A stretch of 64,000 nucleotides of DNA from Laetmonice hystrix (Eukaryota), in assembly GCA_965235115.1 (NCBI GenBank), contig OZ249448.1:7626001-7690000 (forward strand), read 5' to 3'. Positions 1 to 33,000 of this stretch are shown one piece after another. Position numbers: made by a program. The stretch's first letter is position 1; each line of letters opens with the position of its first letter.

Positions 1-3000
1 GCCACAATCCCCGGCCTTCACACAAACCGCCACGAATTTCTATGAGCCATGCGCACTGTTCATTAAACACTATTTCTCGGGGCTGAAAAACATAGAGCCC
101 CAACATGCCCGGCGGGTCGGAGGGGATGAACCTGGGTGACTTATCAGAGCACTGCACACTACCCTCCCTCCCACACCACCCCGGGCCACGGACAGCACTG
201 AGAGAGCAACCTCTGTGGTCGGCAAACTGGGCCGCCGGGAGGCGAAAATCTACTTACGCTTTGCCGTGACAGCGGAGAGTCAAATTTGGAGATTTTGTTC
301 AACTGGAAATAGACAAGACATGATTGTAGCGAACGGTGGGTGCTCGGGGCACGACGGGAGGTTGTCCTAAGTCAGGCTGGGACAGTCCCCGTGTAAACCC
401 CCTCCCCTTCCACCTCACCTACACAACGGGCCCTCCCCACATCTAATGTCACAACACATAAAAAAAACCGGCACCAATTTCATGGTGCATTATTGCATCG
501 TTCCAAGCGTTGTTTGCATTAGGTGCAGCGCGCAATGAAATAAATGATCCAATAAGAACTCCATCTACGTAAACGAAGGCACCTCTTTGATCTTCCCATC
601 CCTATTCTTCACCAAGTCTGCCGATAAAAAAACCCCACAAATACAATCTTAGAGGCTGAGAAAAACCGACCAGAATGATTGGGATATTGGATAACGTGAA
701 GCCAGTCGGCAATATATTTATTTATGTCCCCTCCAATAGTGTATTCTACCATGAGGTCAATGCGTACACAATTTTGTAAATTGGGTAAAAGCCACACGAC
801 ACACATTATTACGAAGGGAGGGTTCAAATTTTACATATACAAAAGAAGCACTAAACCATATCAACATTGCGGGGGGGGGGGGGGGGGAGGGGGGTTCTCG
901 AACCCCTATGATGACCGACATATAGATGACCTACATCCTAAATCCCATACCCCCTTCCGTCACTCGCCCGCTCTGTTTGCAGTCACATGCCGGCAACATT
1001 ATTATTACTTTGACTGAAATAAATGTGCCCACACAAGTATAGTTGGGTGTTGACATGCCATGTTAAAACAAACATATTAGATAGACAGATCTCCTAGGGC
1101 TATGGATGCAGGTATTGCGTTATTTCTATCGGAAATGCGGTCACTAATGTAGGGTGAGCCAATCACAGGCAAGGTTACAAGGCGTTACGGTAAACCAATT
1201 ATCGACCTACCTTTGCTTGCCGATCTCGTTCAGCGAGTTCTGCCAGATTGTGAGGCTGACCGAGGAAGCCAGGTTTCTACAAATACAATTCACACATCAT
1301 CAACATCTGACGGTGACCTATAAAAACATGCCGACATCATAAAATTACTGATCCTGGATGACCTATATAATGCATCCCCTTTTCCCTGGCTTCATAAAAA
1401 ATGTAGTTCTTGTCGATGGAAATTCATCAAAGGTTTTTCAAAACATTTAAAAAAGCCACAACGACATCAAGATTTCAGTCAGAATAGAATCCCACCTCAT
1501 GAAGAATTTCGTTTTCTTTCATTTCCTTTCCTTTCAAAGAGGTAATTTTCAGATCTCTTCCAAAACTCGCGCACCGTTTTACATGTTATACTGGGAGTGT
1601 GCGTGGCTGGGTTAGCGTGCGGGGAGTTGGCTGGTAAAATGCGGGTCCCTGAGGCCCGGACTAACTGTGTTGGGCCTTTGTCAGTACATGGCGATGTAAC
1701 AAAAGAGGCCCAGTGAATCGTTCAATGTTTCATGAGAATGCTGACACGGGTGAAAGCCTATTTGTACAGTACAGTATTGGTTATGGCAGTCTGCCACTCC
1801 TCCATGATATCACCAACTCGTCCTAATGGATGTGCCGACTAGTTCATCCCTCCACAAAGGTTATAGATTTTTCAGGCTGTCAACATTAACAACCCCTAAT
1901 TGAACGGTACGTTTGAAGATAAATAAAGTATAAATACATCAGATGGTGGAGTTTCCAGCAGGAGTTTAGCACTTGGGTTGGGGGTCCATGGTTGGTTTTA
2001 GATGAGTACAGGTAACATTGAGGTGTAAATATTTCCATCACACAGTATGATAAACGTCCCAACCTTTGTGGTACCAAACTCTTACACATGAACACACGCT
2101 TACATTTCATGATACATGTAATTTATCGACGGGATCTCCCCACTAAAAAACCAACCAGACTGTTTGCGTTCAACAAAATGTACATGTGGTTTTGTGGACA
2201 GGACTTTCTCTCGTCACAGTCGTTGGCCTACAACTGGTCAGTTGTGATATGTTATACACACAGCTGCTGTGGCTCAATACCTTACAAATGTCACCGAATC
2301 CTCCTGTCCTATTCATAAAGTGGAAACGCTCCCAGACTATGTCCCAGTGGTAGTACTGGTAGTGGCCTGGTACTACTTACAAAATGGGGCTTTGTAGCAG
2401 GCAACTCAGTAAGTGCACAACCCCGCGGACTACAGGTCTTCTCAACAGGTGGCTAAAGTCGGGCATGAGAATAAAAAACTAGATCACTTACCATGTGTGG
2501 GTTTGGTGAGTGGTTGAGGCTGCCACCTAGTGGCGAGTAGGCACCGTAATGCTGATGCATGTGTTGATGTTGGTGCATATGTTGGTGTTGATGCTGGTGC
2601 ATCTCAGCGCGCAGGTAGGGAGGCGGGCCGATTGCCGCGGCCATTTGTCTGTCCTGAGAGGCCAGGAACCGGGTATTCAACTCCTGTCGTATGAGATCCT
2701 GACCTGCAACACCTAAAACGGTAAACCAAAGGTCAGCAAGTACAAATCAACCCAGCAACAATAGACAAATCAACCCAGCAATAATAGATTATATTATGGC
2801 TGGCTTCCGGCCGGGTTATCTTACAACGGAACCATGAGGGCCTTTCACAATTCGATATTAAAGAATATCTGCAATACAAGAATTAGTATGACTAGGTTTT
2901 AATTGATGAACTATATCGGTATCTGAAGACGGTCCATCACTATCTTTTAATGGCGCTATCATTCGTGTGACCTTTCGGTGACCTTATACAGATGAGGGGA

Positions 3001-30000: not shown

Positions 30001-33000
30001 GCCTTGTACGGATTCCGTGACCTACATACGGTGACCTCCAACCTTATTCTCAACCATAACTGGTCTATTCCGCTTTTTCAGCCATCAATATTTATTCGAA
30101 GAGCTGCATGACCATTAGTAATCTGTCATCATAAATCTTATCCTCACTGATTAAAACATTAATATTTCATCTTAGCGTCTCTGGCACTTCAAGATGGTGG
30201 ACTAAAAACATGCATATTTAATACAATATACCACTGACGTTTCCAGCCAAGTATTTAGTTGTGGCAAGTTACTCTGATATTAACCTCACCTGGCCTGGGT
30301 CATTCTCGTCAGTGAGTGAACGTGTAATCTTGGCATCTTATTATCTGTCTAAGTGTAAACTAGAGAGAACGATTTATGACCATCTATATTTATACAGCTA
30401 CCGGAGTGAGAGTTTCCCTGTTTCGAAGTCTGTCCTCTCTATCCTCCATTTATTTCTGTTTTTACTGGTGGGAACGACAGATAATATTAAATGACCTTCT
30501 TTCATGTCCAATGTACCTGTAATTTTGTGGAGGGATATGGCTAGACTTTCTGTGTACTGAGCTGCAGCGATTTTTGTTAAGTGTGTCACTGTATGTAATA
30601 TTTTTGTATAAAACGGTCATGCTTTCTGCCACCAGAGGCGCTGACATTGTACTTCCGTCGTGCTGTATTGGGCTTCATTCGATGAAAGAATTTCCCTGGC
30701 CTAACACTACAACATTCAGTCATGTTCTTCGACGGTTCTAAAGGGCACTGTTTCAAAGTCAGTCTACTTCTTTACTGAAGAGTCTATTTCCATTTTCTGG
30801 TTGAAATTTGAAATTTACAAATAGTCCTCTGGCTTCGTCCGCCTTTTTAGTCAGTGAGTCGTGATTATTTTTAGGTAGAGAACAGGAATTTCTGGGTAAA
30901 TGTTCTGACTTTTACATTTGTATTTCTGTGGTTAGAATAATTGCCGCCTCATCACATTGTACGATTTGGTAGGGGTATGTTTACATAATGAATACCGGGT
31001 ACGTTCCCATGAATAGTTTGAGGAAAACCATTTTTGTAAGAAAAAAAAACCCTCTTTATTTATGATGCTTTTAGAATGGACATAAATTCATTCATAAATC
31101 AATAAACCTTCATAAACATGCAAATGCGTTAAATAGGTCAGTGGCTATGGCTTTAATGGCCCTTAATGATGCAACGTTTTCATCCTTCGGTATCAAACCT
31201 ATTCATTCGTTATTTTTATTTTACTTGTACAGAAAGTTCAATTACCGGACAAATTGCCACACTCCTTTTTTGATACTAGTTTAGCCCCAACTAATGTACA
31301 TGTGTTGCTATGCTTTATGTTGCTGAACATGAAAATATGTCTAGATAATGAAAGTACACCATCTCTAATATTCGCTAACATCAAGATCCCTATTATCGCC
31401 CTTGTCTTTGTCACTTATCTAAATTACTAGCTGTACTTCCTTCCTGCACTTATTTCAACAACACCTATTTGAAAACATGCTAGGCCTCTCTATCGTTAAC
31501 ACTTAATTTTCACATATATTATCAAGTATCTCCCAAAGCAATTTACATAGTTCACAACCGACATATGCTAGGCAATTGCGCAATTCATGATGAAAAAGGA
31601 ATCCCCTTTACTCAGCGTTCAACCATCCCCGATGTAAAGTACATGGGCTGGTTTTAGAACATTCAAACAAATCCCCTTATGCAATGCCACGTACCCATTA
31701 ATATTAGGCCAAGTGTGGGTAACTAGTGGCGCAGATCGATAATTCTCAATGGCAACTCGCACCATTCCGGATCTATTGTCCCTCTCATCCGACACGGTAA
31801 TCGACCCGTAGTGAGGATGATGTAAGACCTGCTAGTTGTACTACACCCGACCTAATTGACCTTTCTATGTATTAAATCTCTCACCGTCGGAAACCATGCC
31901 AAACCCTCTCCTGGCTAAATGAGCCAAGCTCTTTACACCTCTATAGACCGTATGCTCTTGACTTTGGGAACACCAGATGACTGGCTCAAGTATTGACTGG
32001 CCGGTGACTCGCATGGCGCAATTAATGGGGATTTGATACTTTAGTGACCAACTCAACATCACGATCAATATACATGCAACATCTCTAACCAGTTCTCTCC
32101 CTCACAAAGTTACCCAGCTAACGTCATTACCAGTAATAGGATCTAGCGTGTTACTAAATCTACTATTGATTCACAAGTAAAGAGGTTTTCTCACAGGACG
32201 TACGTCGGTGTAAGAACTGTAGTAAATATACTACAACACATTATAACTAAAACGTTTAGGATCAAGCATCTTAAAGTGTTCATGTATCAACGTTAGATTC
32301 GATCTGAAGGAGGCTCTAACAATTTCCTTTTTTTGTTGTATCATCTGAAAGCTAAGATCAAAGAGATACTTACTTTTAATGTGATGCGTGGAGAAGAAGC
32401 CTTCCGAGCCAACATCAGAAGCCTGCAACAGAAAAATACGATCAAATGAAATTACACTAAATAAACAAGCTTACTTAAACATCCCGAGGATTTAACACAT
32501 TAATCACGCCGCACCACTATGAACTGAAACAAAAAGCTGTTGGTATACTTCGAGGAAAACCTTTGATATAAATTCAGACATAACTTTTATCCTCGACACG
32601 GGAGCACCATAAACAAATGCTGCATGATATCAGTTGGGACATGTACAGCAAACTTCCATAGGCCATCTATAAAATACCACCTGTTGGATCTACATACATG
32701 TACTGGTATTTATATGATTGTAACTCTGTCATTGCTCACCCTACCAATGACTTACGTCATGACCTACCATGCTACCTTCCACATCTTTATGAGACATTGT
32801 GCACCAAGCTCTGTTAGACAAGCATCTTTAAACAACTCGGTTTTCACGATCCCTCTCCCCCATTATAGCCGTCAGCCTTGACCGCTAGCCGTACAATGAA
32901 ACCGTTCCATGTACAGTGTACAGAGGACCACCCTGAACCAGTTCGACTGCCGACAGACAGCCAGAAGACCACAGTTTGAGGCAGGGTCGCGTGCCCTCAC

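What the first reader, a model, noticed from the sequence alone, without database searches (positions are those of the whole stretch)
258..32422. Invertebrate AUTS2-family gene with vertebrate-like exon architecture
Seen: five minus-strand exons with GT-AG sites and phases 0/1, 1/2, 2/1, 1/0, 0/0 form an uninterrupted 431-codon frame; two are too small for the ORF track to define. Known: AUTS2 carries [12 protein letters not shown], a PPPY motif and an HX repeat linked to P300 recruitment in non-canonical PRC1. Inference: exon order, phases and the 45-nt exon appear retained across bilaterians.
Basis: partly seen in the sequence, partly recalled or inferred. Interest (0 to 1): 0.65.

Follow-up and report, generated by a model that had tools for sequence, protein, structure and literature searches.

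The report
Middle exons of invertebrate AUTS2 gene
The window holds five middle exons of an ordinary animal gene of the AUTS2 family (a chromatin regulator known from human brain development), split by introns much as in vertebrates, which is expected rather than surprising.

Summary
Five minus-strand exons (32374-32422, 24698-25349, 17088-17422, 2492-2703, 258-302) have AG/GT sites and phases 0/1, 1/2, 2/1, 1/0, 0/0. They add up to 431 stop-free codons.

- **Exon 4** ([16 protein letters not shown], nine-unit His-X repeat) is AUTS2 family: 64 hits, 48 with PF15336, none named as another family.
- **Exons 1, 3 and 5** match short conserved motifs of invertebrate and vertebrate homologues, in the same order.
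- **Exon 2** (Ser-rich) has no detectable homologue. It rests on frame, splice sites and position only.
- **Exon 5** is a modest match.

The defining C-terminal AUTS2 domain and the N-terminal exons lie outside the window.

The "vertebrate-like architecture" is partly supported. Published text says human exons 6-9 are linked by split codons with whole-codon junctions either side, the same pattern as here. The exon 4|5 boundary also falls where vertebrates have their exon 9 alternative donor. Exact vertebrate phases and a 45-nt vertebrate exon could not be checked.

This is a new member of a known kind, of low interest. The joined peptide was not built or searched.

The parts
32374..32422 (-). 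Exon E1, 49 nt, phase 0/1, ASDVGSEGFFSTHHIK. It corresponds to the end of conserved region 3 of the family, and is the probable equivalent of human exon 6.
   Evidence: Splice sites, translation. It matches ASDVGSDLF... in Lingula (0/200 shuffles reach the score) and ASDVGSEKLFS in the sawfish Pristis (0/200). It is the top hit of a named-homologue motif profile over the whole window, E 0.0063.
24698..25349 (-). Exon E2, 652 nt, phase 1/2. It encodes a Ser/Thr/Pro-rich low-complexity segment (55 Ser of 216 codons) and is the positional equivalent of the divergent Pro/Ser-rich linker (human exon 7).
   Evidence: Splice sites. Only the model's frame is open over the span, and all six Ser codons are used. 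The split codon gives R before E, as in the R-E found at this point in 5 of the 10 homologue segments printed (Ostrea, Mytilus, Mizuhopecten, Glandiceps, Saccoglossus; Lingula has R-D). No sequence homologue was found: 0 hits in 1.84 billion representatives, and no homologue exceeds composition-matched shuffles by z>2.5.
17088..17422 (-). Exon E3, 335 nt, phase 2/1, Pro/His-rich. It ends with MFAPPLP...SLSSTALPG...SSFQS (conserved region 4) and is the probable equivalent of human exon 8.
   Evidence: Splice sites, translation. The best local alignment lies directly upstream of the E4 match in 11 of 15 homologues, with z>2.5 in 6 of 15. Its tail aligns with Lingula ...SISSFHS. Alone it finds nothing in the large protein set.
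2492..2703 (-). Exon E4, 212 nt, phase 1/0. It holds conserved regions 5 and 6 and is the equivalent of human exon 9.
   Evidence: 64 hits at E<=0.001, 48 of them with PF15336; tblastn of named invertebrate homologues gives E 1e-15 to 1e-24. Alignment.
2654..2689 (-). [12 protein letters not shown] motif (family region 5).
   Evidence: The identical 12-mer is present in the two hemichordate homologues.
2615..2626 (-). PPPY motif, a WW-domain ligand type.
   Evidence: Sellers et al. report it in AUTS2 and most invertebrate homologues but not in FBRS, FBRSL1 or Tay.
2546..2599 (-). His-X repeat of nine units (HQ x6, HM x2, HY x1).
   Evidence: His is coded by CAC and CAT and Gln by CAG and CAA in mixed order, so the repeat is kept at protein level and is not a DNA repeat. 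The human repeat is described as HQ x6 plus HT x3.
2704..2712 (-). Possible in-frame alternative acceptor (ttttag|GTGTTGCAG) that would add V-A-G.
   Evidence: Read. None of the 14 aligned homologues has an insertion here, so 2703 is preferred.
258..302 (-). Exon E5, 45 nt, phase 0/0, LNKISKFDSPLSRQS. It corresponds to the start of conserved region 7 ([YF][DE]K.PK.[DE]SPFYR) and is the probable equivalent of human exon 10.
   Evidence: Splice sites, translation. Alignment. Shuffles reach the score 3/200 (Mizuhopecten) and 2/200 (Tegillarca), but the match is not significant against most others. The motif profile gives E 0.012 within the colinear interval and E 0.55 window-wide, where it ranks second.

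Best explanation
The region is an internal piece of the single AUTS2-type gene (the 'ancestral AUTS2 progenitor' type of Sellers et al.) of a non-vertebrate animal. It is transcribed from the minus strand.

What is shown:
- The five exons encode the disordered middle of the protein, in this order: the end of conserved region 3, a fast-evolving Ser/Pro-rich linker, region 4, region 5 (RQELN.RFL), a PPPY motif, a nine-unit His-X repeat, and the start of region 7.
- The introns are 7.0, 7.3, 14.4 and 2.2 kb and are full of minisatellites.
- The upstream exons lie more than 31.6 kb away, off the window. The C-terminal exons that carry the Pfam AUTS2 domain also lie outside it.

What is inferred from mammalian work only:
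- The protein joins a PCGF3/5-type non-canonical PRC1 complex through parts not in this window.
- Its His-X repeat recruits a CBP/P300-type acetyltransferase, turning the complex into an activator.
- The PPPY motif offers a WW-domain docking site.

The intron positions and phase pattern of exons E1-E5 look inherited from the common ancestor with vertebrates (human exons 6-10).
For: - E4 is family-specific: 48 of 64 hits carry PF15336. Two more are named AUTS2, and none is named as another family.
- Named invertebrate AUTS2 homologues map by tblastn to E4 (E 1e-15 to 1e-24) and, colinearly, to E3 and E2.
- The E1 and E5 motifs lie in the right order and on the right strand.
- Junction residues fit the homologues. 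The E1|E2 split codon is R, followed by E. The E3|E4 split codon is S, as in Lingula SSFHS-S-QELL.
- All ten splice sites are canonical.
- The phase pattern equals the published human bloc of exons 6-9.
- The vertebrate 7-residue and Lingula 20-residue insertions sit exactly at E4|E5.
- P300 binding by the His-X repeat is published for human and mouse AUTS2 (passages).
Against: - No PF15336 match in the window, so the defining domain is unseen.
- E2 has no homologue at all.
- E3 alone finds nothing in the big database. Its support is positional, with modest z-scores.
- E5 replaces the nearly invariant aromatic pair (FY) with LS. Window-wide it is outscored by a chance 9-residue piece at 8889-8915.
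- There are no transcript data.
- Function in any invertebrate other than fly Tay is not documented in what I read.
Confidence: 0.85

Rival explanations
1. The gene is real, but the model is wrong in part. E2 may not be the exon used (other boundaries, or another exon of length 1 mod 3). E5 may be a chance look-alike, with the true next exon lying beyond the window start.
For: - E2 has 0 hits in 1.84 billion representatives and no score above composition-matched shuffles.
- E5 ranks second window-wide at E 0.55.
- The two hemichordate protein models have no E5 block at all.
Against: - E1 (phase 1 out) cannot join E3 (phase 2 in) directly, so an exon of length 1 mod 3 is needed.
- E2 is the only long open AG..GT span there, and is open only in the needed frame.
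- E2 starts with R-E, as the homologues do.
- E5 has flawless sites and phase 0/0, and is the best match in the colinear interval, E 0.012.
Confidence: 0.2
2. The region is a dead or partial duplicate (pseudogene fragment) of the AUTS2-type gene, not the functional locus.
For: Only a middle fragment is visible. The N-terminal motif exon (SSSG[KR]GY.CDSES) is not found in the 31.6 kb upstream.
Against: - There are no stops or frameshifts in 431 codons, and all splice sites are intact.
- The His-X repeat is kept with mixed codons.
- Long 5' introns are normal for this gene: 16-301 kb in human.
- Sellers et al. found a single copy per invertebrate species.
Confidence: 0.04
3. The window is from a vertebrate or another chordate paralogue (FBRSL1 or FBRS) rather than an invertebrate AUTS2-type gene.
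For: Vertebrate AUTS2 and FBRSL1 are also among the E4 hits.
Against: - Named invertebrates score better: 9e-16 to 1e-13, against 6e-12 and worse.
- PPPY is present, which FBRSL1 and FBRS lack.
- RFLASQDR is the form seen in hemichordates, amphioxus and spiders. The three vertebrate sequences aligned have RFLVQ.
- CpG o/e is 0.61.
Confidence: 0.03

Closest known systems
Invertebrate AUTS2 homologues ('aAUTS2p' of Sellers et al. 2020), for example the RefSeq models of Lingula anatina, Glandiceps talaboti, Saccoglossus kowalevskii, Ostrea edulis and Mizuhopecten yessoensis
   Same: The same conserved blocks occur in the same order: ASD.GS..LF, then a Ser-rich linker, PPLTSTAL...SSF, Q[DE][19 protein letters not shown], the His-X repeat and [YF][DE]K.PK.DSPFYR. 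The [12 protein letters not shown] 12-mer is identical to both hemichordates.
   Different: - Identity to named homologues over E4 is 45-57% where the whole of E4 aligns and 51-75% over partial alignments. The closest relatives (about 90%) are two unnamed database ORFs.
- The linker exon E2 is unalignable.
- E5 has LS where the others have FY.
- The hemichordate models lack the E5 block.
Human and other vertebrate AUTS2, exons 6-10
   Same: - Region-to-exon map: region 4 in exon 8, regions 5 and 6 in exon 9, region 7 starting in exon 10.
- Exons 6-9 are joined by split codons with whole-codon junctions outside the bloc.
- The boundary after the His-X exon is at the same alignment column.
- The His-X repeat has nine units.
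   Different: - The vertebrate sequences aligned have RFLVQ.. rather than RFLASQ, and HT units rather than HM.
- Human introns 7-19 are about 1-3 kb, against 2.2-14.4 kb here.
- Exact phases and exon 10 size in vertebrates were not checked.
Drosophila Tay bridge
   Same: A divergent orthologue of the same ancestral gene.
   Different: Tay carries regions 5-7 in a single exon and lacks PPPY. The window splits them over at least two exons and has PPPY, so it is of the vertebrate-like type, not the fly-like type.

Membership tests
AUTS2 family (AUTS2/FBRSL1/FBRS/aAUTS2p/Tay) | Pfam 'AUTS2 region' PF15336 in the C-terminal half | tested here: inconclusive
   There is no PF15336 match in the six candidate ORFs scanned, and no tblastn match to the C-terminal halves of 14 homologues. 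The gene runs off the window start 257 nt after E5, so the domain exons are simply not in view.
AUTS2 family (AUTS2/FBRSL1/FBRS/aAUTS2p/Tay) | Best sequence matches fall within the family | tested here: met
   E4 gives 64 hits at E<=0.001. Of these, 48 have PF15336. Of the 16 without it, 2 are named AUTS2 and the rest are short or unnamed. None is named as another family.
AUTS2 family (AUTS2/FBRSL1/FBRS/aAUTS2p/Tay) | Conserved regions in fixed order (regions 3, 4, 5, 6, 7 of Sellers et al.) | tested here: met
   E1, the E3 tail, E4 and E5 align to these blocks in order and on one strand. Regions 1, 2 and 8-11 are outside the window.
AUTS2-proper / ancestral type (as against FBRSL1, FBRS, Tay) | PPPY (PPxY) motif next to the His-X repeat | tested here: met
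   GPPPYLRAE at 2615-2626.
Vertebrate-type exon architecture of AUTS2 | Exons 6-9 form a bloc joined by codon-splitting junctions, with whole-codon junctions on either side | tested here: met
   The window phases are 0/1, 1/2, 2/1, 1/0, then 0/0. The human pattern comes from the text of section 5 of PMC9008325. That text gives split against whole junctions, not the exact phases.
Vertebrate-type exon architecture of AUTS2 | Same intron position after the His-X exon | tested here: met
   The sawfish AUTS2 and frog FBRSL1 7-residue insertions, and the pipefish sequence without one, bracket the same column as E4|E5. The zebrafish paper ascribes the 7 residues to an alternative 5' donor of exon 9. 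This is indirect, drawn from proteins and not from gene models.
Vertebrate-type exon architecture of AUTS2 | Exact phases 1, 2, 1 and a 45-nt exon 10 in vertebrates and other invertebrates | not testable with these tools
   No eukaryote genome or gene-model collection is on hand. The exon table of PMC9008325 is a supplement (closed). No paper holds both 'AUTS2' and 'intron phase'.
Non-canonical PRC1.3/1.5 activator module | His-X repeat binds P300/CBP; the protein binds PCGF3/5 | not testable with these tools
   Only the repeat itself is seen. Binding is shown for human and mouse AUTS2. The PCGF-binding part is not in the window.

The most novel reading that the evidence does not exclude
The bloc of four phase-linked exons plus a separate 45-nt exon next to the P300-binding His-X repeat may be an arrangement kept since the bilaterian ancestor. 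The junction after the His-X exon may be an ancient hotspot of alternative splicing.

Observations that fit this (the fourth is read):
- a 7-residue alternative extension in jawed vertebrates
- a 20-residue insertion in Lingula
- the 15-residue block absent from both hemichordate models
- a possible 9-nt alternative acceptor in this window

If so, the 45-nt exon would be a regulated cassette that tunes the region beside the activator motif.
Probability: 0.2. Interest if true: 0.35.

Novelty: new member of a known kind. Interest (0 to 1): 0.12.

Why it matters
It matters little beyond annotation.

- It gives exact exon coordinates for the middle of an AUTS2-type gene in a genome where the closest database entries are unnamed ORFs.
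- The PPPY motif and a nine-unit His-X repeat, the mammalian P300-binding element, are kept at protein level in a non-vertebrate.
- Conservation of intron positions between vertebrates and slowly evolving invertebrates is a well-established general pattern (my own knowledge). Invertebrate AUTS2 homologues are already described (PMC7732068). A specialist would therefore not be surprised.

Tried and rejected
- **Pfam on the six candidate ORFs.** No AUTS2 domain, only sub-threshold noise.
- **E3 alone against the large protein set (longer proteins).** 492 candidates, none at E<=0.01.
- **E2 alone against 1.84 billion representatives.** 0 hits.
- **E2 and its last 60 residues against 15 and 11 homologues, with shuffles.** Nothing beyond composition; the best is Tegillarca at 10/200.
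- **Search for the upstream exon (SSSG[KR]GY.CDSES).** A regex over six frames found nothing. Sensitive tblastn of seven N-terminal parts gave a best E of 1.4, with no credible hit. The motif profile gave a best E of 0.5-0.8 at non-colinear places.
- **The piece at 8889-8915 that outscores E5.** It is nine codons between stops, has no AG or GT sites and lies upstream of E4. Rejected as chance.
- **Plus-strand 'hits' at 37.6-37.9 kb and 43.7-44.6 kb.** These are Pro-rich translations of tandem repeats.
- **Isoform comparison in sawfish, scallops and hemichordates to find a skipped 15-residue cassette.** No isoform pair differs at the E5 block.
- **Papers on fish auts2.** No exon sizes or phases in the text.
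- **Other features.** Rfam found nothing. Pfam on 12 other long ORFs found nothing.
- The joined 431-codon peptide was not assembled, searched or folded. The organism was not identified.
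Full report
**The window.** It has 64,000 bases, no N, and a CpG observed/expected ratio of 0.61. I do not take it for human. Its AUTS2-like exon is only 53-75% identical to the vertebrate hits, over about half its length, and the CpG ratio is far above the roughly 0.2 that I recall for mammalian DNA.

**Observation.**
A scan for AG...GT intervals open in the required phases, together with direct reading, gives one consistent chain on the minus strand: E1 32374-32422 (49 nt), E2 24698-25349 (652 nt), E3 17088-17422 (335 nt), E4 2492-2703 (212 nt) and E5 258-302 (45 nt).
- Each acceptor is a pyrimidine tract ending in cag. The donors are gtaagt (four) and gttagt (one).
- The in-frame parts translate without stops to 16, 216, 111, 70 and 15 residues. 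The split codons are A|GG, AG|C and A|GT. The total is 431 codons.
Everything below was done exon by exon.

**Exon 4.**
- Its 70 residues ([18 protein letters not shown]...[28 protein letters not shown]...) found 64 proteins at E<=0.001 among proteins of 124-2000 residues.
- Of these, 48 carry Pfam PF15336. Two of the 16 without it are named AUTS2. The others are short or unnamed, and none is named as a different family.
- The best named hits are bivalves, Lingula and hemichordates (E 9e-16 to 7e-12). Vertebrate AUTS2 and FBRSL1 follow.
- Two unnamed ORFs are about 90% identical. They read through what look like the same acceptor (..LLAG|QDLL) and donor (..HL|VS, as from gtaagt). I did not trace their origin.
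- The His-X run has nine units, and its His and Gln codons alternate irregularly. It is therefore held at protein level.

**Exons 1, 3 and 5.**
- E1 (ASDVGSEGFFSTHHIK) matches ASDVGSDLF.. in Lingula and ASDVGSEKLFS in the sawfish, with 0 of 200 shuffles reaching the score. It matches related forms in amphioxus, a hemichordate and bivalves, always upstream of the E4 match.
- A profile of the E1 motif, built from 15 distinct segments found among 45 named proteins, picks E1 as the best of 3878 six-frame pieces of the window (E 0.0063).
- In two bivalve models the sequence upstream of 'ASD' is unrelated, as expected if an exon boundary lies just there.
- E3 alone finds nothing in the large set. 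Its best local alignment abuts the E4 match in 11 of 15 homologues and exceeds composition-matched shuffles by z>2.5 in 6 of 15.
- The E3 tail (SLSSTALPG...SSFQS), the split-codon S and then QDLI line up without a gap with Lingula ...SISSFHS-S-QELL.
- E5 (LNKISKFDSPLSRQS) aligns with the block [YF][DE]K.PK.[DE]SPFYR, which follows the His-X exon directly in molluscs, Lingula, amphioxus, arthropods and vertebrates.
- The E5 match is modest. Shuffles reach it 3/200 and 2/200 for two bivalves, and it is not significant for most others. The profile gives E 0.55 window-wide, where it ranks second, and E 0.012 among the 86 minus-strand pieces downstream of E4.
- The piece that outranks E5 window-wide (8889-8915) is nine codons between stops, without splice sites and out of order.

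**Exon 2.**
- It has no detectable relative: 0 hits among 1.84 billion representatives, and no alignment to 15 homologues beyond composition.
- Four things support it. E1 and E3 need an intervening exon of length 1 mod 3. Only the required frame is open across the span, with 0 stops against 2 and 6. Its splice sites are good. The R-E at its start matches the R-E found at this point in 5 of the 10 homologue segments printed, and Lingula has R-D.
- Sellers et al. describe this linker as divergent between orthologues.

**What is missing.**
- No PF15336 domain is present.
- No upstream exon with the strongly conserved SSSG[KR]GY.CDSES motif is found in the 31.6 kb above E1.
- The window therefore holds only the middle of the gene.
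- Nothing else was found. Rfam gave no match, and 12 other long ORFs have no Pfam match.
- The introns hold many minisatellites, about 9.3 kb in arrays by my sum of the non-overlapping rows. These arrays explain the long spurious ORFs and the plus-strand low-complexity hits.

**Architecture.**
- Sellers et al. 2020 (PMC7732068; outline and sections 10 and 11 read, plus passages) map region 4 to human exon 8, regions 5 and 6 to exon 9, and region 7 to exons 10-11. They say fly Tay has regions 5-7 in one exon.
- The review PMC9008325 (section 5 read) states that human exons 6-9 are joined by junctions that split codons. That is the pattern of E1-E4, with phase 0 before E1 and after E4.
- Kondrychyn et al. 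2017 (PMC5555464, passages) report a conserved alternative 5' donor of exon 9 that removes 21 nt. In my alignment the corresponding seven residues of sawfish AUTS2 and frog FBRSL1, and a 20-residue insertion in Lingula, sit exactly at the E4|E5 boundary.
- The mapping of E1-E5 to human exons 6-10 is therefore well founded, and the phase pattern agrees.
- I could not check the exact vertebrate phases, whether vertebrate exon 10 is 45 nt, or any invertebrate gene model. The review's exon table is a supplement, which I could not see.
- Both hemichordate models lack the E5 block. That may be a skipped or missed small exon, or a loss.

**Function.**
- Liu et al. (bioRxiv 10.1101/2021.03.30.437620, passages) show that mutations in the human His-X repeat disrupt P300 binding and activation by AUTS2-ncPRC1.3.
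- Transfer of this to the present organism is inference.

**In print.**
- Invertebrate AUTS2 homologues are described.
- Searches for AUTS2 with 'intron phase' found 0 papers. AUTS2 with 'microexon' found 7 papers, 6 listed, none about an AUTS2 exon judging by titles and abstract starts. Sellers et al. contains neither 'phase' nor 'exon structure'.

**Verdict.** This is a correct gene-fragment annotation of a known family, with a plausible but only partly tested claim of conserved architecture. Interest is low.

Noticed in passing
window 3035-3637, 18244-19655, 25780-27711, 38768-39585, 43755-44346, 45012-46201, 56279-56740, 62706-63293 and others: The introns and upstream region are packed with minisatellites of 29-117 nt period (20 TRF rows at score >=200; about 9.3 kb by my sum of the non-overlapping rows). 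They create long ORFs in several frames, for example 25753-27036 on the plus strand (427 aa), and false Pro-rich protein hits.
   Followed up: partly
window 2704-2712 (-): A second AG lies 9 nt upstream of the E4 acceptor (ttttag|GTGTTGCAG|GTCAGG). It would add V-A-G in frame. No homologue has residues there.
   Followed up: partly
window 2546-2599 (-): The nine-unit His-X repeat is written with mixed CAC/CAT and CAG/CAA codons, so it is not a DNA-level repeat. Its unit count equals that reported for human AUTS2.
   Followed up: yes
alignment of homologues, column of the window's 2492|302 junction: The junction after the His-X exon is a hotspot of length differences. There are 7 extra residues in sawfish AUTS2 and frog FBRSL1, 20 in Lingula and 2 in Tegillarca, and the whole following 15-residue block is absent in both hemichordate models.
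   Followed up: partly
window 36001-48000 (+): There is a strong negative GC skew (-0.14 to -0.32 per 4 kb), coinciding with C-rich tandem arrays on the plus strand.
   Followed up: no
window 8889-8915 (-): A nine-codon piece (..SSFYKH) scores better than E5 against the FYR-motif profile. It has no splice sites and lies in intron 3, so it is judged a chance match.
   Followed up: yes
window 17633-18316 (-): This 227-codon open frame just upstream of E3 has no Pfam match and partly overlaps the 56-nt tandem array. It is unexplained and probably non-coding.
   Followed up: partly
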